The notes under the pieces: model-generated
The model's database searches: none
The model's input: the letters and a program-made list of their open reading frames with translations, nothing else
Told to the model about the DNA's origin: nothing
In this document: positions 10,565 to 55,944 of the stretch, piece by piece
How positions within the stretch are numbered: the stretch's first letter is position 1
How the letters are laid out: every line of letters starts with the position of its first letter
Made by a program: the position numbers and the translations under genes
Assembly: GCA_964564035.1 (NCBI GenBank)
Contig: CAZLZN010000004.1
Location: forward strand, 10,632-74,631
Length of the DNA: 64,000 nt
Direction: 5' to 3'
Origin: an uncultured Gammaproteobacteria bacterium
GTDB taxonomy: Bacteria; Patescibacteriota; Microgenomatia; Levybacterales; UBA12049

Positions 10565-10643
10565 ACAAAAGATTATGACAATAAACATTTACAAAGAGAG
10601 GGGGTGGACTAAATTATTAAGGTAAACACTTAATAAAATCGTT

Positions 10644-10925
10644 ATGAGTGGCTCACCAATTGACAGTCCTAGTTTCGCAATTATAGTAATCTATTCATTA
10701 GTAGTCGCTCTTATAATCCCATTTCTCGTCGGATTCTTTATTTCTTTTTTTATTCTGAAGCGTGTTTTTATAGATAAAAAAAGCAAAAAGTACCCAATAA
10801 ATAAAAATATTCACATATTAATTATTTTGCTCGTTTCCGGGTTATTTGGATGGCTAACAGTAATATTTTTAGGAAACTATTTCGGAGATATTGGTAATTA
10901 TGTTATCGAATTTACATCAAAATAA
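10644..10925 (+). CDS. small membrane protein, paralog 1 of a local family
   Basis: Two or three TM helices. Shares the motif IPFLVGFFISFFILKRVFIDKKSKKY with ORF 11118..11384 (TPFLVGSLLSFFILKRIFIDKKKKKY). Confidence 0.6.
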   Translation: MSGSPIDSPSFAIIVIYSLVVALIIPFLVGFFISFFILKRVFIDKKSKKYPINKNIHILIILLVSGLFGWLTVIFLGNYFGDIGNYVIEFTSK

Positions 10926-11117
10926 TTGACGTATAATTACCTCGCCGAGCGCGATTACCACGCCATACGAGCATCACGGAACACACGGAAGCATGGATTA
11001 TGCTTGAGAAGATAAACAGGAATTAGTAATCCTGCAACTATTTACGGAGCAAGGAAGACTGAAGTATGGATATTAAGTTTATCAATAAATAGATCAAATG
11101 AGGAGAGGTGATAGCAT

Positions 11118-11384
11118 ATGTTTTTTCCTGGTGAGGAGGGGATTGTATTGATAATCATTGTTGGGTTTCTCTTCGCGATACTAACTCCGTTTCTTGTCGG
11201 ATCTTTACTTTCTTTTTTTATACTGAAACGAATTTTTATCGACAAAAAAAAGAAAAAGTATTTAAAAGACAAACAAGCGCGAATCATAATTTCAATATTT
11301 ATATCAATATTATTTGGATACTTATCAATTGTATTTTTTGGTGAAGAAATAAATAAATATATTATTAATTTATTATCGAGATAA
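11118..11384 (+). CDS. small membrane protein, paralog 2
   Basis: Paralog of 10644..10925 (same PFLVG..SFFILKR.FIDKK.KKY core). A strong SD-like GAGGAGAGGTGA lies 6 nt upstream of the ATG. Confidence 0.6.
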   Translation: MFFPGEEGIVLIIIVGFLFAILTPFLVGSLLSFFILKRIFIDKKKKKYLKDKQARIIISIFISILFGYLSIVFFGEEINKYIINLLSR

Positions 11385-11508
11385 CTACTACCTACTATAC
11401 ATCTGATAATTTGCCTTAGATTTAAGTATAAAATACTAATATTATGTAATATACGGGGAGAGGAGGTGAAGCAAATTATTAGGTAATTAAACCTTAATTT
11501 AAAAAATT

Positions 11509-11753
11509 ATGACTTTAGGATATGGATATGGTATAGCAGTAATATATTCAATTGTAGCGTCCTTGTAATTCCCTTTCTAGTCGGATTCTTTATTTCATTT
11601 TTTATACTGAAGTGCATTCTGTCTCACAAAAAGAATAGATTTTATGTAAGATCACCTAAAAAACGTATTGTATTAGTGCTTGCTCTTGCATCTATAATTG
11701 GATTTTTGTGTTTTTATATACCATACACTTTACGGTTATCGGGATATTTATGA
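11509..11753 (+). pseudogene. small membrane protein, paralog 3, frameshifted
   Basis: ATG 11509 runs into TAA at 11566-11568. The conserved core (VIPFLVGFFISFFILKC..) is read in another frame up to TGA 11751-11753. Alignment to paralog 1 DNA shows a 1-nt deletion (gtagtcgctctt vs gtagcgtcctt). The upstream leader is homologous to that of paralog 1. Confidence 0.55.
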
Positions 11754-11761
11754 TATATAGT

Positions 11762-11984
11762 GATGATGCTATCCAGATCTGGAACGTACTCTTGACCTGC
11801 CCGGTAATAATCAACGCCTATGTGATAAACAGGACAACCACACAGGCCCCAAAGAGGACGGTGCATTAGAAGTCGGTAGCCCCGGTTCGTCATATGACTA
11901 TCTAAGAGGTTCTAAATTTATTGATCTTCCGGAAGGCGGAAACTACACTGTCCAAAACAAAAGCAACAAATGAGGGAAGCTGTG
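11762..11984 (+). pseudogene. decayed fragment homologous to the lipase-domain region of the 7022..10564 gene
   Basis: The DNA aligns by eye to ~9239..9620 of the large gene, with an internal deletion. For example, ccccggttcgtcatatgactatctaagaggttctaaatttattgatcttccggaaggcggaaactac matches ccccggctcgtcctatgactatctgagggattctaaatttatctatctgccggaaggcgaaaactat. The fragment contains stops and has no start. Confidence 0.6.
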
Positions 11985-12059
11985 AAAACTCATACTGTAA
12001 ACGGCATGTTTTTTGCTGCAGCACAAGCTACCACAGGTGGGATATAGAAAATTCGACCC

Positions 12060-18115: not shown

Positions 18116-19048
18116 TCACTTGTTTCCGGAATGGAATGTTTTGTGAACTTCTCTTAACTGCTTGTTTGTAATGTGTGTATATATTTGGGTAGTCGCGATG
18201 TTTTTGTGACCGAGCATTTCCTGTACGGATCTAATATCAGCCCCATTGGTCAGTAGATCAGTCGCGAAACTATGTCTCAAAGTATGAACAGTCGCATCAA
18301 CAGGTAAGCGCGCAAGTTTAACATATTTTTTGATTATCCGCTCAACGCTTCTGGGGGTAAGCCTCATCTTCTCTCCGCGGTTTTCTTCATTTTTTTTACC
18401 TGAATAGCGGATAAATAATGGCCTATACGGATCCAGTCTGATTTTCAGATAATTGCCGATCCAGTCCGCAGCCCTGTCGGAAATAAAAACAATTCTCGAT
18501 TTGCCGCCTTTGCCAATCACACCGAATTCTCGTCTTTCTAGATTGATTTGTTCATGATTGAGTTTGGTTAATTCACTCACGCGAAGTCCGGTTGAAAATA
18601 GAAGCTCCATTATTGCCCTGTCCCGGGTGCCTTCTTCCGTTGATGTATCAGGCATTGTAACCAGGCGGTCTATTTGTTCACGCTCTAAAAACTTCAAACT
18701 GCGGCTTTCTGTTTTGGGCAGATCTATCTTGGAGGGCTCAAGCGTATTAATATCATTTTTGATAAGAAATCTGAGAAACGACCTGAGGGCGATAACGTAA
18801 TAATTTTGAGTAACCTTTTTGAGACCTTTTTCTTTGGCGTCTTTTACATTTGATAAATATACCCTATATTTTCTAATACTTTGTAAATTCAAATCAGCCA
18901 GTGTTTTTTGAGGCATTTCGCGCTTAAACCAATTCTCAAAAACCACCAAATAATGCCTGTAGTCTCTGATCGTAAGTTTGCTGCAATTTTTTTCTATCTC
19001 CAGATACTCCAGGAAATTCTGTATGTGTTCTTTTAGCGGATCATTCAT
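18116..19048 (-). CDS. tyrosine site-specific recombinase, XerC/XerD family
   Basis: N-terminal SAM-like core-binding domain. C-terminal catalytic motifs ..GLRVSEL.., ..HTLRHSFATDLLTNGADIRSVQEMLGHKNIATTQIYTH... Confidence 0.9.
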   Translation of the reverse strand: MNDPLKEHIQNFLEYLEIEKNCSKLTIRDYRHYLVVFENWFKREMPQKTLADLNLQSIRKYRVYLSNVKDAKEKGLKKVTQNYYVIALRSFLRFLIKNDINTLEPSKIDLPKTESRSLKFLEREQIDRLVTMPDTSTEEGTRDRAIMELLFSTGLRVSELTKLNHEQINLERREFGVIGKGGKSRIVFISDRAADWIGNYLKIRLDPYRPLFIRYSGKKNEENRGEKMRLTPRSVERIIKKYVKLARLPVDATVHTLRHSFATDLLTNGADIRSVQEMLGHKNIATTQIYTHITNKQLREVHKTFHSGNK

Positions 19049-21206: not shown

Positions 21207-22643
21207 ATGATTAGCGATCAATATCAGGATTGCCTGAAATACATAGATAAGTATTGGGAAAGGATTATTTTCAGGCCATCCAAAATGAAGCTCAGAAGCG
21301 GGTTAAAAAATGTACCCATCCTTATATCCAGCGTTAATCATAAGCTTTTTAAAAATAAAAAAATTAACAGGCTGTATGTTGAAATCCCCCATTATTATTT
21401 TGTTCCGAATGACAGAAAGTTCAAATATATTTTCTATTGGGATAGTTATTTTATGTTCAAGGGATTAGTCGGAACTAAACGTGAATGGCTTATGAAGGAA
21501 ATGGTCGAGAATTTTATATATCTATTTAACTATCTTCAGATAGTGCCTAATTTCAGCTCCAGGGCCGCGCTGGGACGCTCACAGCCGCCGTTCCTGTCTT
21601 CTATGATACTTGAGACATACAAGGCCCCCATAAACCGCAATAACTATTACAATTACGTAGGCAGTCTCCGGGGATTTATATACAGATTGTATTACAAGAG
21701 ATGGCTCAATAGATCAATGGATATAGCAAGGCAGGAGTATGAACTTGTCTGGATCGATAAAGACTGCTCATATAATCACAGTGTGCCCGGATATAAGCTA
21801 TCACGATACGGCGACCGGGACATAGGCTACGCGCACTCATCCGAGCTTGAATCAGGATGGGATATGACATCGAGATTTTACAGTAGATGTAATGAGTTTT
21901 TACCTGTTGATCTGAACTCTTATCTATATAAATATGAAATGGATTTTGCGGAATCCGCAAAAATTCTGGAAAACAAAGAAGATTTTGATTATTGGACTAA
22001 AAAAGCAAAAGAGAGACAAAGTGAGATAAATAAATATATGTGGGATGAACATACAGGGTTTTTTTATGATTACGGTTATTATTATAAAAGGCTTAGTAAA
22101 TTCTTATCTCTGGCCGGTTTTATGCCAATGTGGGCCGGGATAGCAACACCCGAGCAAGCCGAGCGCATGGTTAAAAAACTGCCAAAATTTGAAACCAAAT
22201 ACGGTCTTGCCATAACAGCTAAGGAGTCGCTCGCGCATCAAATAGATCTATCTAAAATTCAAACAAGGTTCAGATCCGCGATTGAATCTATTATTAAGCC
22301 CAAACAGTGGGATTATCCGAATATATGGTCTCCGCTTGAATATCTGACTGTTATTGGCTTACTGCGGTATGGATATATAAACGAGGCAAAAAGAATCATG
22401 ACTAATTCTATAAATGCTCATGCCGCCGCATATAGAAAGCACAAAACTTTTTTTGAAAAGCTAAATGGCGAAACCGGTGAATCCGGCTCAGGGGCTTTGT
22501 ACCGCGACCAGGACGGCTTTGGCTGGACAAATGCTGTATTTTACCGTTATATAAAACTACTTGAAGATATAGAGAGCTTAAAAACTATTTATGAAGAACC
22601 TCTTCAAGCCGAGCCTCCATATAACCTGGCTATCCTACACTAA
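21207..22643 (+). CDS. alpha,alpha-trehalase (GH37), cytoplasmic type
   Basis: Trehalase signature-like motifs PNDRKFKYIFYWDSYF and QWDYPNIWSPL, plus RSQPPFLSSM. No signal peptide. Confidence 0.85.
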   Translation: MISDQYQDCLKYIDKYWERIIFRPSKMKLRSGLKNVPILISSVNHKLFKNKKINRLYVEIPHYYFVPNDRKFKYIFYWDSYFMFKGLVGTKREWLMKEMVENFIYLFNYLQIVPNFSSRAALGRSQPPFLSSMILETYKAPINRNNYYNYVGSLRGFIYRLYYKRWLNRSMDIARQEYELVWIDKDCSYNHSVPGYKLSRYGDRDIGYAHSSELESGWDMTSRFYSRCNEFLPVDLNSYLYKYEMDFAESAKILENKEDFDYWTKKAKERQSEINKYMWDEHTGFFYDYGYYYKRLSKFLSLAGFMPMWAGIATPEQAERMVKKLPKFETKYGLAITAKESLAHQIDLSKIQTRFRSAIESIIKPKQWDYPNIWSPLEYLTVIGLLRYGYINEAKRIMTNSINAHAAAYRKHKTFFEKLNGETGESGSGALYRDQDGFGWTNAVFYRYIKLLEDIESLKTIYEEPLQAEPPYNLAILH

Positions 22644-23370
22644 TCCGACTCCCCTGCCTGAACCAAAGCGGGGAGAGGAGCACGGCAGGAATTACGAAGC
22701 TAATAAAAAAGCAGACAACTGTTCTTTGTGAAAAAAATGTTAAATATAGTCCCATAATATGTTATTGTGAATGTAACGAGTTAATTAAAAAAGGTACATG
22801 AATAACGGGAGAGCATTAATATACGACGCGGTATCATACGAATAATTAATTTAATTTTGAGGCATAAATGATAAAAATATTTAAGAGCTCCCCCGGCTTT
22901 CGTGCCTGCATGACGTCGTAAAAGTATTATTGTGCGACGTGATAAGATTGTTGTCCTCCGGTGCCTACCGGGCTTATTTTAATCGTATTTAAGTACGATG
23001 TATTTCTAATCATAAAAGACGGGAGAATTGCTTCCGAATGACGAATGACTACTGGCCATGACCGAAAAACGTATATTTTTAATTCAAGTACAATTGTTAA
23101 ATTACGGCTTACCTCCGACGTAAGAGCGGTCTATTATGTAGGTAAACACAGCAAGTCTTAAGCGCCTGCCGATTGTCCAGAAATTTATTAAATTTAAAAT
23201 TTTGTATACACATGTATAGAGAAGGCGTTATATTATGCGAAATTTATTTGCTTGCCAATAATGGTCAATATATTGTTTTTGAGTAAATGTTTTGTTTATT
23301 AAATGGTTCGTTGTAGCTCCTAAATATTTGAGGGGCCTTGTAGGGCTTTATATTGACAAGTAGTTTTAGG

Positions 23371-23382
23371 TTGATATATCAA
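23371..23382. repeat. perfect 12-bp palindrome TTGATATATCAA (copy 1), inside a ~38-bp repeat unit
   Basis: TTGATATATCAA is its own reverse complement. The unit ggttgatatatcaatctaaactcgttattttagcttca (23369-23406) recurs as gcttgatatatcaatataaacatgctattttgaggcta (23744-23781). A TTGACA hexamer lies at 23353-23358, so the palindrome overlaps a possible -10. Confidence 0.7.
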
Positions 23383-23745
23383 TCTAAACTCGTTATTTTA
23401 GCTTCATTAATAATATACATCTTATAAATTGGGCTTTCGTATTTTTTTCGAGCGACTCGAAACGCGCTATCAAGAGTACAACGAGATCAATATTTGTTAT
23501 TGTAAGACCATGTTTATTTATAAGATTAAGTATAAAAATATATCAAGATAATATTAAACTAGTTAACCAGTGAGAGTAAAATACATTTTATAGCTTAACA
23601 AGATAATAACTAATGATCAATAGTTTAGCTTGTAATTACGATATAAAGTTATATTTCTGAGGCTAATTTTCGATAATTTATTAGAATATATATTTTAAGC
23701 TTCCTCAATAAGCTATAGGAAAAGTAAATTCTCGTGCAATTTTGC

Positions 23746-23757
23746 TTGATATATCAA
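23746..23757. repeat. perfect 12-bp palindrome TTGATATATCAA (copy 2)
   Basis: An identical 12-mer lies 375 bp from copy 1, with similar flanks (see copy 1). Confidence 0.7.
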
Positions 23758-23947
23758 TATAAACATGCTATTTTGAGGCTAATATTTTCAAATTAATGCT
23801 TTTTTGTTACGGAGAGCAGTATCTGTGTTGTACGAGCTGAGAGCACACGTGGTCTTATAGTATATAGGCTTTAATGCAAACAGGCTTATTTAAGGCTATT
23901 TCTATGCTATTAGCACTGTGAAAAGTAGTAATATAGGCTGTGAAAAG

Positions 23948-23956
23948 TTATCCACA
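23948..23956 (+). promoter_or_regulatory. perfect DnaA-box consensus TTATCCACA, flanked by repeats
   Basis: TTATCCACA at 23948-23956. It is immediately preceded by the direct repeat ctgtgaaaagt (23916-23926 and 23938-23948). It is followed by the tandem 10-mer aactatatca x2 (23958-23977). This is the only perfect box I found, so its function is unproven. Confidence 0.3.
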
Positions 23957-24051
23957 TAACTATATCAAACTATATCATTTATGTTATAGGATCTACTCTA
24001 TTTTGATTATACTACTCTCTTATACTCTCTCCTCTTCCCTGCTCTTTTAGC

Positions 24052-24903
24052 TCATCCTGAAAAAACTATTAAAACAAAAATAACAATGAAACCAACCCAT
24101 GCATATTCCCATAAAATTCCTTTGAAAAATCTTTTTTCGAACCATATATGAGAGAGTCCGGCGACTATATAGAAAAAGCCTGTCAGGAAGAGCGATATAA
24201 TAGCCGGCTTGCTGGGCCAAAACCATAATATTGCGGCTAACTCTACAATGCATAGGGTTAATGCCAAAACCCAAATTGCCAAAGGTTGAGTGATTTTCTG
24301 AAGCGCATAGGTCCATAAAGAATGATAAAAAAGCAGATAAGTATACGCGAATAATAATAGCAATATCGGAAGTATGTTGACGCGCAGAGTATACAGTACG
24401 TTGGTTAACAGAAAAAAAGATACCAGGGTGACTACGAAGGAAACAATTCTGGCACCGGACAGTAAAGCAATAGTACGAGTTGAAGAGACAACCAAAATAT
24501 TTTGACTGAGGTAAAGTGAGTAAAGACCGAACGCGTATACAACTGCTAAAATAATTTTATAAATAAAATTCGGCGTCAAAAAGCAAAACAGGCCGAATGA
24601 TAAACTATAAAAGAATGGCAAAATAAAAATTTCATACATGAATTTATCTTTGATGTCTTTGTATAGGCCCCAAAAGAGGAAAGCATCTGTCAGGATAGCG
24701 AGTATAAACGATGTAATAATTCCCGATCTGTTGAACTGGAATTCTGTAAAAAGAAGACCAATAGTTAATATAAGGACACCGATAACGAACTTCTGTCTCT
24801 TCCCTATTGTTATGCTTAGTGACTTTCTAGCTCTTTTGGTTCTTGTCAGCAGTTTGCCAATATTCAGAAAATTACCGGCTGTAGTTCTATTTTTTAGACT
24901 CAT
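24052..24903 (-). CDS. hypothetical polytopic membrane protein
   Basis: 283 aa with roughly eight hydrophobic helices. No recognised motif. Confidence 0.6.
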   Translation of the reverse strand: MSLKNRTTAGNFLNIGKLLTRTKRARKSLSITIGKRQKFVIGVLILTIGLLFTEFQFNRSGIITSFILAILTDAFLFWGLYKDIKDKFMYEIFILPFFYSLSFGLFCFLTPNFIYKIILAVVYAFGLYSLYLSQNILVVSSTRTIALLSGARIVSFVVTLVSFFLLTNVLYTLRVNILPILLLLFAYTYLLFYHSLWTYALQKITQPLAIWVLALTLCIVELAAILWFWPSKPAIISLFLTGFFYIVAGLSHIWFEKRFFKGILWEYAWVGFIVIFVLIVFSG

Positions 24904-24918
24904 TAATTATATTTTAAA

Positions 24919-25653
24919 TCAATTTTCAGCAATATCAAAATTTGTATAAACTTTCTGTATATCGTTTAAGTCTTCCATTTTCTCTATAAATGCTATAGTT
25001 TTGTCTATGATCGACTTGTCGCCTACAGTCATTAACGTCAGCGGTTTATAGGTTAACTCAGCTTGTTTTATTTTGATACCGCCTGTTTGCAGAGCAGTTC
25101 TGATCTTATCCAGTTCTTCCGGCTTGGTATAAATTACCACTTCACTCCCCTCTTCTTCTACATCCTGCGCTCCTGCGTCAACTGCGGTTAAAAAAATATC
25201 ATCAAATGATTTATTTTCTTTGTCTATTATTAAAATCCCCGCTCTCTGGAACTGGTACATAACTGAGCCTTGGGCGCCCATAGTGCCCCCGTTCTTGTCG
25301 AACGCATTTTTTACTTCGGCTACAGTTCTTTGTTTATTGTCGGTCAAGCCTTCAACGACCACTGAAATACCGCCCGGACCAAAGCCTTCATAAACTACCT
25401 CTTCCAAGCTTGTGTCTTGCTTACCTGAGGCCCTGGCGATAGCGCGCTCAATATTGTCTTTGGGCATATTTGAATTTCTGGCCGCTTCTATCGCGATCCT
25501 GAGCCGGAAATTACTTTCAGGGTCCGCGATGTTTCCGCCTTGTTTAACGGCCATAGTAATAGCGTTCGAGAGCTTGGTAAAGGCCTGTCCGCGCTTCATG
25601 TCGTTCGCACCTTTTTGGCGCTTGATCGTTGACCACTTTGAATGTCCTGACAT
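24919..25653 (-). CDS. yebC: YebC/PmpR family DNA-binding transcriptional regulator
   Basis: N-terminus MSGHSKWSTIKRQKGANDMKRGQAFTKL is the family hallmark. I start at this Met (25653) rather than the ORF-track Met at 25662. Confidence 0.9.
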   Translation of the reverse strand: MSGHSKWSTIKRQKGANDMKRGQAFTKLSNAITMAVKQGGNIADPESNFRLRIAIEAARNSNMPKDNIERAIARASGKQDTSLEEVVYEGFGPGGISVVVEGLTDNKQRTVAEVKNAFDKNGGTMGAQGSVMYQFQRAGILIIDKENKSFDDIFLTAVDAGAQDVEEEGSEVVIYTKPEELDKIRTALQTGGIKIKQAELTYKPLTLMTVGDKSIIDKTIAFIEKMEDLNDIQKVYTNFDIAEN

Positions 25654-25724
25654 AATTCTCAATTATAACTTTCCGTATTGACATTTGCAATAAATGGTTG
25701 TAGAATCTCATGCAACCCTAAGAC

Positions 25725-30638: not shown

Positions 30639-32156
30639 TTACTTCCTGAGGTAGTTCAGGAGCATGCGTACCCCGAAGCCTGTTGCGCCTTTGGGACTGA
30701 TGTCGCTTGCTTTGGATTGGAATGCTGATCCGGCGATGTCTAAATGAGCCCATGGCACATCTGACACAAACTCTTCTAAAAATAATGCTGCAGTTATCGT
30801 ACCGCCGTATCTGGTGTTTGGAATATTACAAATATCCGCGATGTCGCTTTTGTTCATTTTCTTATATTCTTCAACGAGCGGCAGTTCCCAGATTTTTTCT
30901 CCGGCTTCAAATGCTGAGGATTTGAGTTTGCGTGCCAAATCGGCATTGTTTGAAAATAACGCGCTTATATCCGGCCCCAGCGCAACCATAACTGCCCCGG
31001 TGAGAGTTGCGAGGTCTACAATTTCAGTTGCACCTTTCTGTACTGCATAACTGAGACTGTCAGCCAATGTTACCCTGCCTTCAGCATCGGTATCAAGAAT
31101 TTCAATCGTTTTACCGTTGAGGGCTTTTGCTACGTCGCCGGGAAGCGTCGAGTCTGCAGAGATCAAGTTCGGGGTGGCCGCAATCAAGCCTAACACATCA
31201 TGATCAGGTGCAATCTCCGAGATAACCGAAAATACCCCTAAGACAGCGGCAGCGCCTGCCATGTCCATTTTCATATCGATCATACTGCTTCCTGTTTTGA
31301 CATTTATGCCTCCGGAATCAAACGTAATCCCCTTGCCTACCAGCGCGATTTTCTTTTTTGATTTTTTATTTTCCGGAATATATTCAAGGTGGATAAACTT
31401 AGGCGGGATCTTGCTATGAGCGGCTTTGGCTATAGAAAAGAAAGCTCCCATCCCCATTTTGCGGACCTGTTCTATGTCCATGATTTTGCATATTATATGA
31501 TTTGGATTTTTTTTTGCTATATCAAGCGCAATATTTGCCAGGTACTCCGGAGTCGCTATAGCAGCTTGTTCATTTACCAGATCGCGTGCCAAAACTGCAG
31601 CCTTTGAATATAATTTCGCCTCTTTTATAGCGGATTCCATGACTTTCTTATCACCCTCCCCGCTATATGAGATAATTACCGACGCGAAATCACGTTCATT
31701 TTCGGTTTTTTTGTATTTGGCAAATTCGTATTTTCCGAGCATAAAACCTTCTGTGAACGCATGTATGATAGTTTTTAAATCGAATAACTTTTTGAAATCA
31801 TCGGGTATACTCAATGAAGCGGAATCAATTTTGTTTTTAAAATTTTGTGTAAATTTACCGGCCGCGCGTCTAAGAACATCTGCTGTGAAGTTAGATTTTT
31901 TTCCAAGACCGATCAATACAATACGTGAGTATAGGGTTTGTTTTGAGGTAATAATCGTCAGAATATCGCCTGTTTTTGCTTTGTATTTATCCAGTTCGCA
32001 AATTTTTGAGATCTGAGAATTAAGATCTGTATCAAGTTTTTTGAAATCTTCAAAATATGTAATTGTGCCGTTTTTGTCCGCACTTTCGAATACAAAAAGC
32101 AGAAGAGCGTCTGAGGAAATGTTGTCGATTTTATGGGAAGTTAATTCGAAATTCAT
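30639..32156 (-). CDS. pepA: leucyl aminopeptidase (M17)
   Basis: ..VGKGITFDSGG.., ..DTDAEGRVTLAD.. and ..GATGFGVR... Start set at MNFELTSHKI (32156). The ORF-track extension to 32375 runs antisense through the tRNA-Leu gene. Confidence 0.9.
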   Translation of the reverse strand: MNFELTSHKIDNISSDALLLFVFESADKNGTITYFEDFKKLDTDLNSQISKICELDKYKAKTGDILTIITSKQTLYSRIVLIGLGKKSNFTADVLRRAAGKFTQNFKNKIDSASLSIPDDFKKLFDLKTIIHAFTEGFMLGKYEFAKYKKTENERDFASVIISYSGEGDKKVMESAIKEAKLYSKAAVLARDLVNEQAAIATPEYLANIALDIAKKNPNHIICKIMDIEQVRKMGMGAFFSIAKAAHSKIPPKFIHLEYIPENKKSKKKIALVGKGITFDSGGINVKTGSSMIDMKMDMAGAAAVLGVFSVISEIAPDHDVLGLIAATPNLISADSTLPGDVAKALNGKTIEILDTDAEGRVTLADSLSYAVQKGATEIVDLATLTGAVMVALGPDISALFSNNADLARKLKSSAFEAGEKIWELPLVEEYKKMNKSDIADICNIPNTRYGGTITAALFLEEFVSDVPWAHLDIAGSAFQSKASDISPKGATGFGVRMLLNYLRK

Positions 32157-32231
32157 GGATTTTATTCTAGCATTTTCGGTGCTAAAAATAAAGATAAATG
32201 CTATAATAAATTGATTTTTTAAAAGATTTAG

Positions 32232-32316
32232 GCCGAGGTGGTGGAATGGCAGACACGAAGGTCTCAAAAACCTTTGAGGATTACACCTCGTGGGGGTTCG
32301 ACTCCCCCTCTCGGCA
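32232..32316 (+). tRNA. tRNA-Leu (anticodon CAA), class II with long variable arm
   Basis: Acceptor GCCGAGG/TCTCGGC. D arm GTG-GAATGGCAGA-CAC. Anticodon stem-loop AAGGT-CTCAAAA-ACCTT. Variable arm with GAGG..CCTC stem. T arm GGGGG-TTCGACT-CCCCC. Discriminator A. CCA is not encoded. Confidence 0.9.
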
Positions 32317-32358
32317 CAAATTGGGGAGGAGAAGTTTATCCTGAGCCAGGCCGAAGGA

Positions 32359-32375
32359 ACTCCCCCTCTCGGCAC
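32359..32375 (+). repeat. 17-nt exact duplicate of the tRNA-Leu 3' end (actccccctctcggcac)
   Basis: 32301-32317 (T-arm 3' half plus acceptor 3' strand) is repeated exactly at 32359-32375, abutting the stop codon of the convergent gene. Confidence 0.85.
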
Positions 32376-42536: not shown

Positions 42537-42669
42537 TTTTGTTTTAGGAAAAAGCCCGGACAGAGTACATTCTCAGCGATAAGGTATTATACTATATAAT
42601 TTGTTATTAAGCTTAATTTTTTGGTAATTCACGAAAATATTAAGTTTATGTAATAAAATCACTATAGGC

Positions 42670-42699
42670 TTGACATTTGGTAATGTGTCGTGCTAAAAT
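42670..42699 (+). promoter_or_regulatory. sigma70-type promoter (TTGACA-N18-TAAAAT), 8 nt upstream of ATG 42708
   Basis: ttgaca at 42670-42675 and taaaat at 42694-42699. There is no SD, and only gacaacat separates the -10 from the ATG, which suggests a leaderless or near-leaderless mRNA. Confidence 0.6.
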
Positions 42700-42707
42700 G
42701 ACAACAT

Positions 42708-43118
42708 ATGCCAAGCTTGAGAGAAATGGGGATACGACCTGATGTAAACGGCCTTAGATTGGTAAGACCAGACAAAAGTGCAAAAGTTGTTAAGGTGACT
42801 GAGTCTCCCATAGTGGGCGATGAGCGTAAATTATTTAATTTCAGAAAACCTGCAAAAAGAGAAAAGAAATCAGAATCTCCAGCGACAGTGAAACTAGAAG
42901 ATCCAACAGAAACCAAAGTAAGAAGCGTAGATGTTTATAGCAGATACGCAAGTAGAAAAGTGACCAAAGCTTTGGCCGAGCAACACCCTACGTTGAGAAA
43001 AGTGCATCTTATGAACGCCGCGGCAGCATTAGAACAGGCAAAAGTTGTAACACCAGGCGGCATAGATGAAATGCACAAGCTTCATACTATATATGAGGCG
43101 ATTAACACGCTGAAATAA
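42708..43118 (+). CDS. hypothetical basic protein (orphan operon gene 1)
   Basis: 136 aa with a Lys/Arg-rich, disordered-looking N-terminal half and a helical C-terminal half. No recognised motif. Its stop is 1 nt from the next ATG. Confidence 0.6.
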   Translation: MPSLREMGIRPDVNGLRLVRPDKSAKVVKVTESPIVGDERKLFNFRKPAKREKKSESPATVKLEDPTETKVRSVDVYSRYASRKVTKALAEQHPTLRKVHLMNAAAALEQAKVVTPGGIDEMHKLHTIYEAINTLK

Positions 43119-43119
43119 T

Positions 43120-43428
43120 ATGGCAGAGAATTTATTTAAGCAAATAACAAGGTATATAGGTTCAAATATTGTGCTTGAGTGCAATATCACCCGTGAACAA
43201 GAAGAAAAAACAAAAAAAGCCGCTCGCAGAAAAATATTCTACGACGACGAACATCGTTCCAGAAGCGGATTTAATGGAGACTCGCCGAGTACTTATGCTG
43301 CTGCAGAGGCGAATATCAAAGCTCTGAGAGCGTCTTTTGCTGATAGCGGGATAAAAGAATTACGAGAGATACCGGCAAAAGTAGATCGAGAGAGAATTTT
43401 AAATATTAGAAAACTGTTCGAGCATTGA
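43120..43428 (+). CDS. hypothetical protein (orphan operon gene 2)
   Basis: 102 aa, charged and helical. Translationally coupled spacing to gene 1 (TAA-t-ATG). Confidence 0.55.
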   Translation: MAENLFKQITRYIGSNIVLECNITREQEEKTKKAARRKIFYDDEHRSRSGFNGDSPSTYAAAEANIKALRASFADSGIKELREIPAKVDRERILNIRKLFEH

Positions 43429-43573
43429 CCCACTAATACCTTACTACCGAACCAATTCATTTATAATCTAAGCATCATATATATTTATCGTATTTATGAT
43501 AAAAAGATTACTTTATTTATGCGGCAGGGTTCATTGACAGCGCTAAGTTATTATAATAAGCTGAATAGAGATT

Positions 43574-45591: not shown

Positions 45592-46917
45592 TTAATTTTC
45601 TGCCGGACGGGATTTTTCGATATTACTAAACCTGATCCTGTTACCCATAAACATGAGATCTATCTCCCCTGTCGGGCCGTTGCGGTGCTTGGCGATCAAT
45701 AATTTAACGGGAACCTGAGGAGTTGTGACTTCCGCGTCGGGGCGGTAAATAAACATAACAACGTCCGCGTCCTGCTCGATAGCGCCGGACTCACGAAGGT
45801 CTGCCAGCTGGGGACGACGCTCTCCCCTATGCTCGACGGCACGCGATAACTGTGACGCCGCGAGTACGGGGACGTTTAGCTCACGAGCGAGATTCTTGAG
45901 GGCCTGAGAGACCATTGAAACCTCCTGCACCCTATTGTCGTATTTCCGACCGGGATCGACGAGCTGTAAGTAATCGACGATCAAAAGCCCCAGTTTGTTT
46001 TCCATTTGCAGACGACGGGCTTTGCTTCTCATTTCAAGTATTGTTAGACCCGGGGTGTCATCTATATAAAGAGGCGCGTCCGCAAGCTCCCCCATTGCTT
46101 TGGAGAGCTTGATAAAGTCATCCTCAGTCAGGCGGCCTGTTTTGAGACGCCATGCATCGATATCCGATTGTGAAATCAAAAACCTGTCGACAAGCTCTTC
46201 CTTGCTCATTTCAAGTGAAAATATACCGACCGGGACTTTGTCACGAAGTGCTATGTGCTGTGCGATATTTAGTACAAGAGCGGTTTTGCCCTGACCCGGC
46301 CTTGCGGCGAGAATGAGTAAATTGCTTTTTTGCATACCGGACAAGATATTGTCCAAATCATAAAATCCCGTTCTGACTCCGCGCATTCCACTGCCATGTT
46401 TTTGAAGTTCATCAATTCTATCAAAACTTTCGGTAAGCGTTGACTTGATCGGGACAAAGCCTCCTTTGAGATGTTTTTGTGATATGGAAAAAATCGAAGA
46501 CTCGGCAACATCCAAAATTTCTTTGACATCTTTTTCCTCGGAATATCCCATTTCCATAACTCCGTTACCGGCATGGATAAGTTCTCTTTTGGTCGAGTTT
46601 TCTTTGACTATTTTGGCATAAGACTCGACATTGACCGCCGTTACGACGGAATCGGCTAGATCTGTAATATATTGTGTTTCTACTTTTTTGATAGTTTTGT
46701 TTTTTTTGATAGCTTCGGTGAGCGTGAGCAAGTCGATCGGTTGTCTTACTTCATAAAGTGCAAGCATTGCTTCATAAATTGCGGAGTTCATTTCCGAGTA
46801 AAAATCCTTGGGAAGAAGAATTTCGGACACCGGGACGATAGCGTCTTTGTCAATCAAAATCGCGCCCAGAACGTTCTGTTCGGCAGTTTCATTGTGAGGT
46901 AAGGATCGGATGGCCAT
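45592..46917 (-). CDS. dnaB: replicative DNA helicase
   Basis: N-terminus ..LPHNETAEQNVLGAIL... Walker A ARPGQGKTALVLN. ..LLIVDYLQL.. and ..SQLSRAVE.. motifs. No intein. Confidence 0.95.
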   Translation of the reverse strand: MAIRSLPHNETAEQNVLGAILIDKDAIVPVSEILLPKDFYSEMNSAIYEAMLALYEVRQPIDLLTLTEAIKKNKTIKKVETQYITDLADSVVTAVNVESYAKIVKENSTKRELIHAGNGVMEMGYSEEKDVKEILDVAESSIFSISQKHLKGGFVPIKSTLTESFDRIDELQKHGSGMRGVRTGFYDLDNILSGMQKSNLLILAARPGQGKTALVLNIAQHIALRDKVPVGIFSLEMSKEELVDRFLISQSDIDAWRLKTGRLTEDDFIKLSKAMGELADAPLYIDDTPGLTILEMRSKARRLQMENKLGLLIVDYLQLVDPGRKYDNRVQEVSMVSQALKNLARELNVPVLAASQLSRAVEHRGERRPQLADLRESGAIEQDADVVMFIYRPDAEVTTPQVPVKLLIAKHRNGPTGEIDLMFMGNRIRFSNIEKSRPAEN

Positions 46918-54471: not shown

Positions 54472-54533
54472 ATCAGTTTTTTCATTGTAACAATTTAATA
54501 TATTAAAGTCAATACTATAAGCCTTTTTGAGGC

Positions 54534-54562
54534 TTGTCAATCGGATTTATTTCAGTTATAAT
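54534..54562 (+). promoter_or_regulatory. sigma70-type promoter TTGTCA-N17-TATAAT, 6 nt upstream of the rpmE ATG
   Basis: ttgtca at 54534-54539 and tataat at 54557-54562, followed by agtgac and then ATG 54569. No SD. Leaderless architecture is inferred. Confidence 0.6.
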
Positions 54563-54568
54563 AGTGAC

Positions 54569-54868
54569 ATGAAAACAGCAATACACCCTCAATTTTATGA
54601 CGAAGCGCAGGTAATATGCGTTTGCGGCAATAAGTTTACGACCGGATCGACGCAGGAAAAGATCCATGTCGAGTTGTGTCATAAATGCCACCCATTCTAT
54701 ACAGGAAACCAAAAATTTGTCGACACAGGATCCCTGATCAAAAAATTCCAGACAAAACAGGAAAACGCTCAAAAATATCAGACCACCAAGAAAAAGAAGA
54801 TCGAAGAGAAGAAGAAATCACAAGAAGGCCCCAAAACACTCCGCGAAATGCTCATGGGACTGAAGTAG
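54569..54868 (+). CDS. rpmE: 50S ribosomal protein L31 (Zn-ribbon type A) with Lys-rich C-terminal tail
   Basis: [36 protein letters not shown].. Started at Met 54569, not the upstream ORF-track codon 54527. Confidence 0.9.
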
Positions 54869-55056: not shown

Positions 55057-55944
55057 ATGGCCGATTATAGATTAGTACAATTACAGGAGCTTGAACAGAA
55101 GATCGAAGAGACGAAAGTACTTCTCTCCGATCCAACCCTCGCGGAGCTAACACAGCAAGAGCTTGCTGAATTGGAGGCCCAAAAGAAAACGATCGAAGAG
55201 AGTCTGCAGGCATCCAAGGAGAAAAACGAAGATAATTTTGATGAGCGCAATATAATACTTGAAGTCAAGGGAGCGGCCGGAGGAGATGAGGCCAAGCTTT
55301 GGGCTGAAGAGCTTGTAAGAATGTATTCCAGATTTTCACAAAGAAGAGGCTTTGTGGTTGAGCGGCTCGACGAATATGTCATCAAACTTAGCGGCAGAAA
55401 CGCGTTCGGCGAGCTAAAATACGAGGCGGGAGTTCATAGAGTCCAGAGAATTCCTGCGACTGAAAAACGAGGAAGAGTACATACGTCGACGGCGACTGTT
55501 TCGATACTACCCGAACTTGAAGATATCGATCTGCATATTGCTCCGGAGGATATTGATTTTGAGGCATTCAGAAGCGGCGGACACGGCGGCCAGAATGTTA
55601 ATAAGGTTTCGACGGCTGTGAGGATCGTACATAAGCCGAGCGGGATTGTCGTTACAGCATCGGCTGAGCGGTCTCAGGGACAAAACCGGGAAAATGCAAT
55701 GAAATTGCTTCGCGCAAAACTTTGGGAGATAGAAGTCGAAAAACAGCAGACACAACTCGCCTCGCTAAGATCAACACAGGTCGGACGCGGAATGAGAGCC
55801 GAGAAGATAAAAACTTACAATTTCCCTCAAGATAGATTGACCGATCACAGAATTAACAGATCATGGAAAAATCTGCCGGAAATACTGGATGGAGATATAC
55901 CGAACGAGCATCCTCAGGACGAAGCGATAATAAAGACAGATTAA
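55057..55944 (+). CDS. prfA: peptide chain release factor 1 (compact, 295 aa)
   Basis: PAT tripeptide ([14 protein letters not shown]) and GGQ motif ([21 protein letters not shown]). The N-terminal domain is shorter than in E. coli RF1. Confidence 0.9.

What the first reader, a model, noticed from the sequence alone, without database searches (positions are those of the whole stretch)
23329..23980. Palindromes, TATATCA iteron-like repeats, TTTTGAGGC motifs and a DnaA box packed into ~650 bp
Directly visible in the sequence:
- The perfect 12-bp palindrome TTGATATATCAA occurs twice (23371-23382 and 23746-23757). Each copy sits in a ~38-bp unit that is about 80% identical by eye.
- The core TATATCA occurs five times (23375, 23539, 23750, 23961, 23971). 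The last two form the tandem 10-mer aactatatca x2.
- Immediately upstream of that tandem lies a perfect DnaA box TTATCCACA (23948-23956). It is preceded by ctgtgaaaagt x2 spaced 22 bp apart (TGTGAAAAG is a 6/9 match to the reverse DnaA box).
- The motif T-rich + TGAGG(C/G) occurs at 22858, 23329, 23658 and 23774.

A DnaA box next to short direct repeats and dimer-type palindromes is the grammar of replication origins and of plasmid iteron/partition or operator regions. No rep, par or regulator gene is adjacent. The first palindrome overlaps a possible -10 element 16 nt after a TTGACA.
Basis: seen in the sequence. Interest (0 to 1): 0.65.

Follow-up and report, generated by a model that had tools for sequence, protein, structure and literature searches.

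The report
Conserved non-coding motif locus, not origin
The repeats, palindromes and DnaA box are real and strongly conserved in a group of tiny-genome (Patescibacteria/Saccharimonadales-like) bacteria, but they are not a replication origin; they look most like regulated promoter/operator DNA in a 1.4-kb gene-free locus whose product is still unknown.

Summary
Every motif sits at the stated coordinates and is locally enriched. The region belongs to a 1,408-bp ORF-free gap (22644-24051) between two convergent genes: a trehalase-like hydrolase and DUF5656, which follows yebC.

In 10 relatives fetched through the DUF5656 protein, the gap persists (0.8-2.7 kb). It carries the same motif blocks in the same order:
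- A: inverted repeat
- B: palindrome, GAGGC motif and T-run
- C: GTGAAAAGT x2, TTATCCACA, ACTATATCA x2, TTATAGGAC and a C/T-rich box

Sequence between the blocks is unalignable.

The origin reading fails. Strand asymmetry at four-fold codon sites keeps the same sign on both sides in seven genomes. Only one perfect DnaA box exists, and one lineage has lost it. Flanking genes converge, and the window has no dnaA, dnaN or par gene. The same test excludes a terminus/dif site.

Several motifs flip orientation between lineages, so they are probably read as double-stranded DNA. In another lineage block C lies directly upstream of smpB. The ACTATATCA pair also sits 2-21 nt before gene starts in mobile-element contigs.

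Best reading (about 0.4): DnaA-influenced, repressor-controlled promoters driving short unannotated transcripts. Function is unproven.

The parts
22644..24051 (.). Whole ORF-free gap between convergent genes: trehalase-like GH (21207-22643, +) and DUF5656 (24052-24903, -, followed by yebC).
   Evidence: ORF list and Pfam. No frame-specific conservation of small ORFs. The gap is retained at 0.8-2.7 kb in relatives.
22888..22894 (+). C-rich box (CTCCCCC; consensus CCTCCCC) about 20 nt upstream of block A.
   Evidence: Conserved column block in alignment A2 of 26 loci.
22913..22940 (+). Block A: inverted repeat/hairpin ACGTCGTA-AAAGTATTATTG-TGCGACGT with a conserved 12-nt spacer.
   Evidence: Seventeen invariant columns in 26 loci. 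96% of cells pair. One pair varies U.G 17 / U-A 5 / C-G 4 and is never broken, but this does not exceed the shuffles.
22957..22982 (+). Terminator-like hairpin plus T-run after block A (window-specific support only).
   Evidence: Searches find one in the window, L004 and L008. Across 26 loci it is no more frequent than on the reverse complement, 5/26 each.
23365..23388 (.). Block B1a: palindrome TTTAGGTTGA-TATA-TCAATCTAAA (family consensus TTTAGATTGA-N4-TCAATCTAAA).
   Evidence: The central 4 nt vary between genomes while the arms are conserved. L082 has symmetric CC/GG changes.
23371..23399 (+). Sigma-70-like hexamers TTGATA-17-TATTTT overlapping B1a.
   Evidence: Consensus scan, 9 of 12. In most relatives I read a hexamer with A at position 2 and T at position 6 at the same 16-17-nt spacing in the, 40 sequences. 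The scans of L004, L130 and L008 did not flag this site.
23393..23405 (.). Degenerate GAGGC motif (ATTTTAGCTTCAT; relatives TTTTAGCCTCAAAA, the reverse complement of TTTTGAGGCTAAAA).
   Evidence: The motif occurs in either orientation in different loci.
23435..23449 (+). Block B2: CTTTCGTATTTTTTTC (family GTTCGTATTTTTTTC).
   Evidence: Tested as an intrinsic terminator and not supported (mean z 0.09).
23740..23785 (+). Block B1b plus GAGGC motif: second palindrome unit (TTTTGCTTGATATATCAATATAAAC..TATTTTGAGGCTAAT), with hexamers TTGATA-17-TATTTT preceded by TG.
   Evidence: A second unit of this kind also exists in L043, L063, L109, L073 and L132, so it is not merely a recent duplication.
23656..23664 (+). 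GAGGC motif copy (TTCTGAGGC). Further copies lie at 22856-22864 and, as TTTAAGGCT, at 23889-23897.
23918..23926 (+). Block C, G1: GTGAAAAGT.
   Evidence: One to three copies are present in every relative.
23940..23956 (+). Block C, G2 plus DnaA box: GTGAAAAGT|TATCCACA. cTGTGAAAAG is an inverted 8-of-9 box that directly abuts the perfect TTATCCACA.
   Evidence: The 17-mer is identical in L004, L005, L007, L008, L130, L132 and L133. The box is separated from G2 in L009 and L137 and lost in L135.
23959..23977 (+). Block C, T2: ACTATATCA-A-ACTATATCA, tandem with 10-bp period.
   Evidence: It is inverted in L129. In IMG/VR contigs it lies 2-21 nt upstream of same-strand ORF starts and forms an array in L145.
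23951..23978 (+). Sigma-70-like hexamers TCCACA-16-TATCAT. The -35 overlaps the DnaA box and the -10 lies in the second T repeat.
   Evidence: The same pair is flagged in L130, and GTGAAA-17-TATCAT in L004. The spacer is 14-16 nt in other relatives, so this is weak.
23984..23992 (.). Block C, P: TTATAGGAT (family TTATAGGAC, which is GTCCTATAAT on the - strand), at a fixed 4-7 nt after T2.
   Evidence: In other lineages it is a palindrome, CCTATAATATTATAGG, placed between the box and T2.
24003..24043 (+). C/T-rich tract with conserved core CCTCTTCCCTG (24031-24041), ending at the DUF5656 stop codon.
   Evidence: In smpB-linked loci the same tract ends at the smpB start codon.

Best explanation
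The flagged stretch is the central and right-hand part of a conserved, single-copy, non-coding locus specific to a Patescibacteria (Saccharimonadales-like) lineage.

I read its short motifs as sites recognised on double-stranded DNA by several proteins:
- DnaA at TTATCCACA, and possibly at the neighbouring box-like GTGAAAAGT repeats.
- An unknown factor at the tandem ACTATATCA pair.
- A dimeric factor at the palindrome TTTAGATTGA-N4-TCAATCTAAA.
- An unknown factor at the TTTGAGGCT motif.

Together these would form two or three regulated promoter/operator modules (blocks B1a, B1b and C) firing rightwards on the + strand. They would produce short unannotated transcripts. The one from block C would start near TTATAGGA and carry the conserved C-rich box CCUCUUCCCUG.

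In a sister lineage the same block C is the upstream control region of smpB, the tmRNA partner. The DnaA box would couple this transcription to the replication cycle.

Shown:
- the motifs and their enrichment;
- deep conservation with fixed order;
- orientation flips of individual motifs;
- absence of a leading/lagging strand switch;
- position upstream of smpB and of mobile-element genes elsewhere.

Inferred:
- which proteins bind;
- that transcription starts here;
- the direction and the product.
For: **Conservation**
- The BLAST matches at block C (54-77 nt) are 83-93% identical to four relatives whose flanking DUF5656 proteins are only 57-77% identical. The rest of the gap is unalignable, with mean column identity 38%.
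- All eleven protein-fetched loci that reach the region have the blocks in the order A, B1, B2, G, G, box, T2, P, C/T tract.

**Recognition as double-stranded DNA rather than RNA**
- T2 is inverted in L129. A third G copy is inverted in L062, L097 and L039. The GAGGC motif and P occur in either orientation.
- The spacer between B2 and G1 shows no excess folding energy in the window (z +0.29) or in most relatives.

**Promoter context**
- In L129, L062 and L039 block C lies directly upstream of smpB in the order G, box, T2, C/T tract, ATG. The G motif is 121 nt from the ATG in L039.
- The T2 17-mer lies 2-21 nt upstream of same-strand ORF starts in at least six non-coding IMG/VR hits.
- Sigma-70-like hexamers sit at B1a, B1b and C in the window, and at C in L130 and L004.
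- This genome uses canonical promoters: TTGTCA-17-TATAAT precedes rpmE.

**Single copy**
- GTGAAAAGT and the palindrome occur nowhere else in 64 kb.
Against: - No transcript data exist.
- The -35/-10 matches are only 9 of 12 in AT-rich DNA. The scan finds 17 promoter-like sites in the region against 8.6 expected.
- The TCCACA-to-TATCAW spacer is 14-16 nt in relatives, which is suboptimal.
- In the window-type loci nothing annotated lies downstream of block C. A rightward transcript would run antisense into DUF5656, and no + strand terminator was found there.
- Conservation of about eight different binding sites in fixed order over this divergence is unusual for an ordinary promoter. It is more typical of origins or structured RNAs.
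- A subset of relatives (L015, L043, L119, L007) has strongly structured GC-rich stems with compensatory changes next to G1, which hints at an RNA component.
- The metagenome set was selected with the 17-mer, so it cannot be used to judge conservation of that 17-mer.
Confidence: 0.4

Rival explanations
1. The gap encodes one large, or several, structured non-coding RNAs on the + strand. The conserved blocks would be RNA junctions and loops, and the palindromes would be hairpins.
For: - Conserved blocks lie in fixed order and are separated by variable spacers.
- The block A hairpin pairs in 96% of cells, with a U.G/U-A/C-G pair that is never broken.
- L082 has symmetric changes in B1.
- Hairpins of unrelated sequence are inserted at the same place between the box and T2 in L023, L073 and the type-2 loci.
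- GC-rich nested stems with compensatory changes and z of -4 to -7 occur in L015, L043 and L119.
Against: - No Rfam family matches, even at E up to 10.
- The window's own spacer and most relatives show no excess stability.
- B1 asymmetries are G.T and A.C in similar numbers, so no strand is preferred.
- Covariation in block A does not exceed the shuffles.
- Motif orientation flips (T2, G, GAGGC, P) are incompatible with a single transcribed strand.
- No consistent terminator follows A or B2.
Confidence: 0.15
2. The locus is a non-origin DnaA-binding site that tunes replication initiation, in the manner of E. coli datA or DARS or the B. subtilis DnaA-box clusters. DnaA would assemble on the perfect box and the flanking GTGAAAAGT box-like repeats, helped by accessory proteins bound to the other motifs.
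For: - A perfect DnaA box is conserved in 10 of 11 unbiased loci.
- The abutting inverted copy CTTTTCACA matches the relaxed consensus TT[A/T]TNCACA at 8 of 9.
- An oppositely oriented box pair plus a third box resembles the DARS core as described in PMC6868365.
- The locus is non-coding, single-copy, away from the skew switch and rich in other protein-site-like motifs.
Against: [quoted passage not shown] Here the gap is 0 bp, or 7-11 bp in L009 and L137.
- The perfect box is lost in L135 while the G repeats stay. The G motif may therefore belong to another protein.
- There are only 3-4 box-like sites.
Confidence: 0.15
3. The locus is a centromere-like or other architectural site. Short repeats bound by a small repressor or partition protein would organise or segregate the chromosome.
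For: - Direct and inverted short repeats lie at helical-turn spacings (10 and 22 bp).
- The 8-mer CTATATCA forms an array of at least 11 copies in an ORF-poor stretch of a 103-kb IMG/VR contig.
- The G motif resembles a parS half-site, GTGAAAC (my own knowledge, not tested).
Against: - No parA or parB gene is nearby.
- The chromosome carries only two T copies.
- There is no canonical parS palindrome.
- The position upstream of smpB in another lineage fits a promoter better.
Confidence: 0.07
4. The locus is a recombination site (dif-like or other) for the Xer-type tyrosine recombinase encoded 3-5 kb away. The B1 palindrome would be the core site.
For: - A 303-319-aa Phage_integrase/SAM_1 gene is syntenic next to the trehalase-like gene in the window, L004, L047, L109, L130, L132, L133, L135 and L137.
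- B1 is a 24-26-bp palindrome with conserved arms and a variable centre.
- The flanking genes converge, as they do at a terminus.
Against: - There is no leading/lagging switch at the locus in seven genomes, so it is not the terminus.
- B1 is absent from L046 and L135 and half-lost in L007.
- Two or more copies sit in direct register in several genomes without deletion.
- The arms are 10-4-10 rather than 11-6-11.
Confidence: 0.05
5. The locus is the chromosomal replication origin (oriC).
For: - A DnaA box with box-like repeats, an AT-rich gap (30% GC) and a T-rich 15-mer are present.
- The locus is deeply conserved and single-copy.
- Contigs often break here (L005, L006, L060, L075).
Against: - The replication-associated GC4 skew has the same sign on both sides:
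  - window +0.08/+0.13
  - L004 -0.29/-0.28
  - L008 -0.12/-0.12
  - L130 -0.11/-0.27
  - L133 -0.24/-0.08
  - L103 -0.16/-0.29
  - L043 -0.17/-0.22
- A locus with a 5-box cluster and divergent genes does flip, from -0.14 to +0.32 (L096).
- There is one perfect box only, and it is lost in L135.
- The flanking genes converge.
- No dnaA or dnaN lies in 64 kb.
Confidence: 0.04

Closest known systems
Bacterial oriC
   Same: It has a perfect DnaA box with nearby degenerate boxes, AT-rich DNA, short repeats and palindromes. It is single-copy and conserved.
   Different: It does not lie at the GC-skew switch, the flanking genes converge, and dnaA and dnaN are absent nearby. There is only one consensus box, which one lineage has lost, and no defined unwinding element adjoins the boxes.
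Non-origin DnaA-box loci (E. coli DARS1/DARS2 and datA; B. subtilis DnaA-box clusters)
   Same: It is an intergenic, non-origin locus. A consensus box is flanked by an oppositely oriented weaker box and a third box, and sites for other proteins lie next to them.
   Different: Box spacing is 0 bp rather than the conserved 5 bp of DARS. There are far fewer boxes than in datA or the B. subtilis clusters. There is no sequence homology and no evidence of DnaA nucleotide-state control.
Repressor-controlled sigma-70 promoters (palindromic operator over the -35/spacer; DnaA-box-regulated promoters such as dnaAp)
   Same: TTGATA-17-TATTTT is embedded in a palindrome. The DnaA box overlaps a -35-like hexamer upstream of a TATCAT -10-like hexamer. 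The same module precedes smpB in other genomes.
   Different: The window has no annotated downstream gene. The hexamers are weak and their spacing varies. The number of conserved sites is unusually high.
Iteron or heptad-repeat control regions of plasmids and phages (Rep iterons; omega/ParR-type repeat operators and centromeres)
   Same: Short direct repeats are phased by one helical turn. The same 8-mer is arrayed in a mobile-element contig.
   Different: There are only two copies here. No rep or par gene is adjacent. BLAST finds no similarity to 72,556 plasmids or 50,697 phages.
C-rich-motif small RNAs (RsaE/RoxS type)
   Same: Conserved C-rich boxes (CCUCCCC, CCUCUUCCCUG) flank a conserved hairpin and could pair with G-rich ribosome-binding sites.
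   Different: No Rfam match was found, no consistent terminator is present, and transcription is not shown. This is a resemblance from my own knowledge only.

Membership tests
oriC | Lies at the switch of leading/lagging strand composition (GC skew changes sign). | tested here: not met
   Orientation-separated four-fold-site GC skew has the same sign on both sides in the window and six relatives. The positive control L096 flips.
oriC | Cluster of several DnaA boxes. | tested here: inconclusive
   There is one perfect box, and no other box with up to 1 mismatch lies in the gap. Two GTGAAAAGT repeats match the relaxed consensus at 8 of 9 when preceded by T. The perfect box is lost in L135.
oriC | Next to dnaA/dnaN or other origin-proximal genes, with genes diverging from it. 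| tested here: not met
   Pfam on all 49 ORFs of at least 150 aa found no DnaA, DnaN or ParAB. The flanking genes converge.
oriC | Coverage peak in growing populations. | not testable with these tools
   No read-mapping tool is available.
Iteron plasmid origin / partition site | Adjacent rep or par gene. | tested here: not met
   The neighbours are a histidine kinase, a trehalase-like GH, DUF5656 and YebC.
Iteron plasmid origin / partition site | Array of at least 3-5 iterons of about 17-22 bp, or many short repeats. | tested here: not met
   There are two 10-bp repeats and two 9-bp repeats.
Iteron plasmid origin / partition site | Sequence similarity to known plasmids or phages. | tested here: not met
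   No blastn match at E up to 0.01 in PLSDB or INPHARED.
dif / Xer site | Located at the replication terminus. | tested here: not met
   The skew test shows no sign change.
dif / Xer site | Single 28-31-bp site, with 11-bp arms around a 6-8-bp centre. | tested here: inconclusive
   B1 is 10-4-10 (or 9-6-9). It has two copies in the window and in several relatives, and is absent from L046 and L135.
DARS-type DnaA-reactivating sequence | Three DnaA boxes, with I and II oppositely oriented and separated by a conserved 5 bp (PMC6868365). | tested here: not met
   The opposite orientation is present, but the gap is 0 bp here and 7-11 bp in L009 and L137.
DARS-type DnaA-reactivating sequence | Promotes ADP release from DnaA. 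| not testable with these tools
   This needs a biochemical assay.
Sigma-70 promoter with operator | -35 and -10 hexamers 16-18 bp apart, conserved in position. | tested here: inconclusive
   The window has 9-of-12 matches at 23371-23399, 23746-23774 and 23951-23978. The block C pair recurs in L130 and L004. The block B hexamers recur by eye in most relatives but not in the scans. Background in AT-rich DNA is high.
Sigma-70 promoter with operator | Lies upstream of a transcribed gene. | tested here: inconclusive
   This holds in smpB-linked loci and in IMG/VR contigs. The window has no annotated downstream gene.
Any Rfam RNA family (tmRNA, RNase P, 6S, SRP, riboswitches, sRNAs) | Covariance-model match. 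| tested here: not met
   Nothing at gathering score in the window or in 15 relatives' elements. The only hits at E up to 5-10 are noise. ARAGORN finds no tmRNA.

The most novel reading that the evidence does not exclude
The locus is a Patescibacteria-specific, non-origin nucleoprotein site. DnaA and at least two lineage-specific DNA-binding proteins would assemble on it. One of those proteins has a site that mobile elements of these bacteria also carry in arrays. The site would act as a replication-cycle sensor or controller, comparable in role to datA, DARS or Vibrio crtS, and would link initiation status to trans-translation and translation-rescue genes (smpB, yebC and efp are its recurrent neighbours).
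Probability: 0.12. Interest if true: 0.75.

Novelty: new variant of a known kind. Interest (0 to 1): 0.5.

Why it matters
These bacteria have genomes of about 0.9-1.1 Mb that are packed with genes. A 1-1.4-kb gene-free stretch, kept in the same place with the same eight or so sequence blocks across lineages whose neighbouring proteins are only 55-77% identical, is therefore under strong selection.

No Rfam family, Pfam domain or paper that I could find accounts for it. If it is a set of regulated promoters for small RNAs, it would give the first handle on post-transcriptional control in this uncultured group. If it is a non-origin DnaA-binding control locus, it would extend a mechanism known mainly from E. 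coli and Bacillus to the candidate phyla radiation.

It is also a practical warning: a perfect DnaA box beside repeats is not enough to call an origin in these genomes.

Tried and rejected
1. **oriC and terminus/dif.** Rejected by four-fold-site GC skew. I first pooled genes, then separated them by orientation after seeing that in L135 and L137 the skew follows the coding strand.
2. **Hidden small proteins.** Six-frame tblastn of the gap against relatives' gaps matched only the DNA-conserved blocks, and in several frames at once.
3. **Known RNAs.**
   - Rfam gathering and E-value scans found nothing, and ARAGORN found nothing.
   - A divergent or permuted tmRNA was considered because L062 and L129 carry smpB plus tmRNA next to the element. 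No T-arm or acceptor features exist in the window gap.
   - RNase P-like and 16S 3'-end-like resemblances (GUGAAAAGUC, GUCGUAA..AUCAC) were judged numerology.
4. **B2 as an intrinsic terminator.** Mean folding z was 0.09.
5. **Block A as a terminated sRNA.** Terminator-like hairpins are no more common on the + strand than on the reverse complement, 5/26 each.
6. **A structured RNA between B2 and G1.** This holds only in a GC-rich subset, not in the window.
7. **Long-range pairing of the two GAGGC motif orientations.** The orientation is inconsistent between loci.
8. **GTCCTATAAT as a leftward promoter.** No -35 is present, and its position and orientation vary.
9. **Plasmid or phage homology.** None was found. 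Block A has no match in IMG/VR.
10. **Neighbours of the L145 repeat array.** PHROGs gave nothing useful.
11. **Literature.**
    - Searches on CPR origins gave nothing relevant.
    - Searches on Patescibacteria ncRNA and oriC gave nothing relevant.
    - A DUF5656 search gave nothing relevant.
    - Searches on Saccharibacteria transcriptomes gave nothing relevant.
Full report
**Setting**

The finding lies in a 1,408-bp stretch without any ORF of 60 aa or more (22644-24051). Its GC content is 30%, against about 40% for the window. The stretch is bounded by the 3' ends of two convergent genes. One is a trehalase/MGH1-like glycoside hydrolase (21207-22643, +). The other is a DUF5656 membrane protein (24052-24903, -), which follows yebC (24919-25662, -). 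A Xer-type tyrosine recombinase gene lies at 18116-19048.

Pfam scans of all 49 large ORFs found no dnaA, dnaN, parA/B, rep or smpB. dnaB is at 45592-46917. The organism is a Patescibacteria member. DUF5656 homologues are named 'Patescibacteria group bacterium' or 'Candidatus Saccharimonadales bacterium', and two related contigs are 894 kb and 1.14 Mb long.

**Observation**

- The 12-bp palindrome occurs twice. With up to 1 mismatch there are 3 matches against 0.66 expected.
- Each palindrome sits inside a 35-nt direct repeat at 83% identity.
- TATATCA occurs 22 times in the window against 13.5 expected, and no shuffle reaches 22. Seven of the 22 lie in 650 bp.
- The two GTGAAAAGT copies are the only exact ones in 64 kb.
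- TTATCCACA is the only perfect DnaA box in the window. Boxes with up to 1 mismatch are not enriched, and no other lies in the gap.

**Conservation**

Six loci from species-representative genomes, and six more fetched through exact DUF5656 homologues, all keep a 0.8-2.7-kb gene-free gap after DUF5656. Where the contig reaches the far side of the gap, the next gene is the trehalase-like gene, with a Xer-type gene beyond it.

BLAST and MAFFT show that most of the gap is unalignable, with mean column identity 38%. Three islands are the exception, at 80-100% identity.
- **Block A** (window 22913-22940): an inverted repeat with a conserved 12-nt spacer, preceded by CCTCCCC.
- **Block B** (23365-23449): palindrome TTTAGATTGA-N4-TCAATCTAAA, then TTTTAGCCTCAAAA, then GTTCGTATTTTTTTC.
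- **Block C** (23918-24043): GTGAAAAGT, GTGAAAAGT|TATCCACA, ACTATATCAAACTATATCA, TTATAGGAC and a C/T tract with core CCTCTTCCCTG.

A motif table for the eleven unbiased loci shows the same order everywhere. The perfect DnaA box is present in 10 of 11. L135 has GTGAAAAGTTCTACTTAAC instead.

The window's second palindrome unit (23740-23785) has counterparts in L043, L063, L109, L073 and L132, so it is an old feature rather than a recent duplication.

A metagenome scan for the 17-mer GTGAAAAGTTATCCACA returned 120 loci. Most are chance hits or true multi-box origins of other bacteria. About 25 have the full block C architecture. That set cannot be used to judge conservation of the 17-mer itself.

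**Is it an origin or terminus?**

I measured GC skew at four-fold degenerate third positions, expressed on the element's + strand.
- In the window it is positive on both sides.
- In L004 all 18 genes are negative whatever their orientation.
- In L135 and L137 the skew follows the coding strand, so I then separated genes by orientation and averaged the two classes.

The replication component has the same sign left and right in seven genomes:

| Locus | Left | Right |
|---|---|---|
| window | +0.08 | +0.13 |
| L004 | -0.29 | -0.28 |
| L008 | -0.12 | -0.12 |
| L130 | -0.11 | -0.27 |
| L133 | -0.24 | -0.08 |
| L103 | -0.16 | -0.29 |
| L043 | -0.17 | -0.22 |

Three loci were uninformative, and none reverses. 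A locus with five DnaA boxes and divergent genes (L096) does reverse, from -0.14 to +0.32.

The other origin criteria also fail. There is a single consensus box, the flanking genes converge, and no origin genes are present. The oriC reading is therefore rejected. So is a terminus/dif reading, despite the nearby Xer-type gene and the dif-like shape of the palindrome.

**DNA sites or RNA?**

Evidence for RNA:
- The block A stem pairs in 96% of cells. One pair varies U.G 17 / U-A 5 / C-G 4 and is never broken.
- L082 has symmetric changes in B1.
- Unrelated hairpins are inserted at the same spot between the box and T2.
- A GC-rich subset (L015, L043, L119, also L007) has nested stems with compensatory changes and z of -3.5 to -7.

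Evidence against RNA:
- No Rfam family matches.
- The covariation in block A does not beat the shuffles.
- B1 asymmetries are G.T and A.C in similar numbers.
- The window's own spacer has z +0.29, and most relatives are near 0.
- Neither B2 nor the region after block A behaves as a terminator across the family.
- Individual motifs flip orientation. T2 is inverted in L129, a G copy is inverted in L062, L097 and L039, and the GAGGC motif and P occur both ways.

Orientation-independent short motifs are what double-stranded DNA sites for proteins look like.

**Promoter context**

- In L129, L062 and L039 block C lies directly upstream of smpB (Pfam E 1e-43 to 1e-46). The order is G, box, T2, C/T tract, ATG, and tmRNA follows.
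- The T2 17-mer has 29 exact hits in IMG/VR, most of them inside coding DNA. At least six non-coding hits sit 2-21 nt upstream of a same-strand ORF start.
- One 103-kb contig (L145) has at least 11 CTATATCA copies in a 2-kb ORF-poor stretch.
- The consensus scan flags TTGATA-17-TATTTT over both palindromes and TCCACA-16-TATCAT over the DnaA box and T2. The latter recurs in L130, and GTGAAA-17-TATCAT in L004.
- The genome uses canonical promoters: TTGTCA-17-TATAAT precedes rpmE.
- These hexamer matches are weak (9 of 12) in AT-rich DNA.

**Interpretation**

The best-supported reading is that blocks B and C are regulated promoter/operator modules.
- The palindrome would be the operator of a dimeric repressor lying over a -35 and its spacer.
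- The DnaA box and the box-like GTGAAAAGT repeats lie just upstream of, or over, a second promoter. Its -10 would lie in the T repeats. Its start would fall near TTATAGGA.
- That promoter would give a short + strand RNA carrying the conserved C-rich box. In the smpB-linked lineage the same module gives the smpB leader.
- This is inference. No transcript evidence is available, and nothing annotated lies downstream in the window.

The rivals are:
- structured ncRNA(s);
- a non-origin DnaA-binding control locus. The DARS core has three boxes with I and II opposite and 5 bp apart (PMC6868365). Here the opposite pair abuts, so membership fails while the analogy remains possible;
- a centromere-like site;
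- a Xer-type recombination site;
- oriC.

**Novelty**

Plasmid and phage BLAST, Rfam, Pfam/PHROGs on the neighbours, and five literature searches found no description of this locus. It is a new, lineage-specific variant of known kinds of non-coding control DNA. It is notable for its size and conservation in a streamlined genome.

Noticed in passing
window 22888-22982: Block A lies outside the finding's coordinates. It comprises a C-rich box (CTCCCCC), the 28-nt inverted repeat ACGTCGTAAAAGTATTATTGTGCGACGT (17 invariant columns in 26 loci), a C/T-rich tract and, in this window, a terminator-like hairpin plus T-run. It is the most conserved piece of the gap.
   Followed up: yes
window 22650-22685: A hairpin, CTCCCCTGCC..GCGGGGAG, lies directly after the trehalase-like gene's stop codon. 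A CCCC..GGGG hairpin sits at the same place in L004, L007 and L008. It is probably that gene's terminator, although it has no T-run.
   Followed up: partly
L145 4630-5700 (IMGVR_UViG_3300037308_000134, 103 kb): An AT-rich, ORF-poor stretch of about 2 kb holds at least 11 copies of CTATATCA and variants (CTGTATCA, TTATATCA), including two T2-like pairs. This is an iteron-like array in a putative mobile element. PHROGs gave nothing useful for its neighbouring ORFs.
   Followed up: partly
L129 586-1689; L062 6369-7400; L039 3159-3717: In a different lineage, block C lies directly upstream of smpB, and a canonical tmRNA follows (Rfam 115-118 bits). ARAGORN missed both tmRNAs.
   Followed up: yes
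window, whole 64 kb, compared with L004, L008, L103, L130 and L133: Four-fold-site GC skew on the element's + strand is positive in the window but negative in the relatives, although gene order is the same. The region is therefore inverted relative to the replication direction in this genome, and the 12 genes at 24-37 kb are head-on to replication.
   Followed up: partly
L005, L006/L134, L060, L075, L046, L073 (contig ends): Many metagenome contigs end inside or within a few hundred bases of the element. This suggests that assemblies break there, through strain variation, low complexity or coverage change.
   Followed up: no
window 54515-54575: A canonical promoter, TTGTCA-17-TATAAT, ends 7 nt before the ATG of rpmE (L31), so the mRNA is nearly leaderless. 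A small hairpin, AAGCCTttttGAGGCTT, precedes the promoter.
   Followed up: no
window 55057-55944: A release-factor ORF (PCRF plus RF-1 domains, 295 aa) starts only at PCRF profile position 43. Its N-terminus may be encoded upstream in another frame, as in the programmed frameshift of prfB.
   Followed up: no
window 32232-32317: tRNA-Leu(CAA) lies inside the N-terminal GTG extension of the mechanical ORF 30639-32375 (leucyl aminopeptidase). The real start is probably near 32150. The same tRNA is syntenic in L004, L008, L009 and L047.
   Followed up: no
window 10565-12059 and 42537-43573: Two further gaps of 1.0-1.5 kb contain no ORF of 150 aa or more and no Rfam hit. I did not examine them for conservation.
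   Followed up: no
L062 3818-3897; L129 4420-4502: AdoCbl-II riboswitch aptamer hits lie just above the gathering score (40.7 and 37.7 against 36.5) in the smpB-linked loci.
   Followed up: no
L137 104-2532: A large serine recombinase (Resolvase, Recombinase and Zn_ribbon_recom domains) and an HTH_7/GP3_package protein sit next to pepA. They probably belong to an integrated mobile element near the syntenic block.
   Followed up: no
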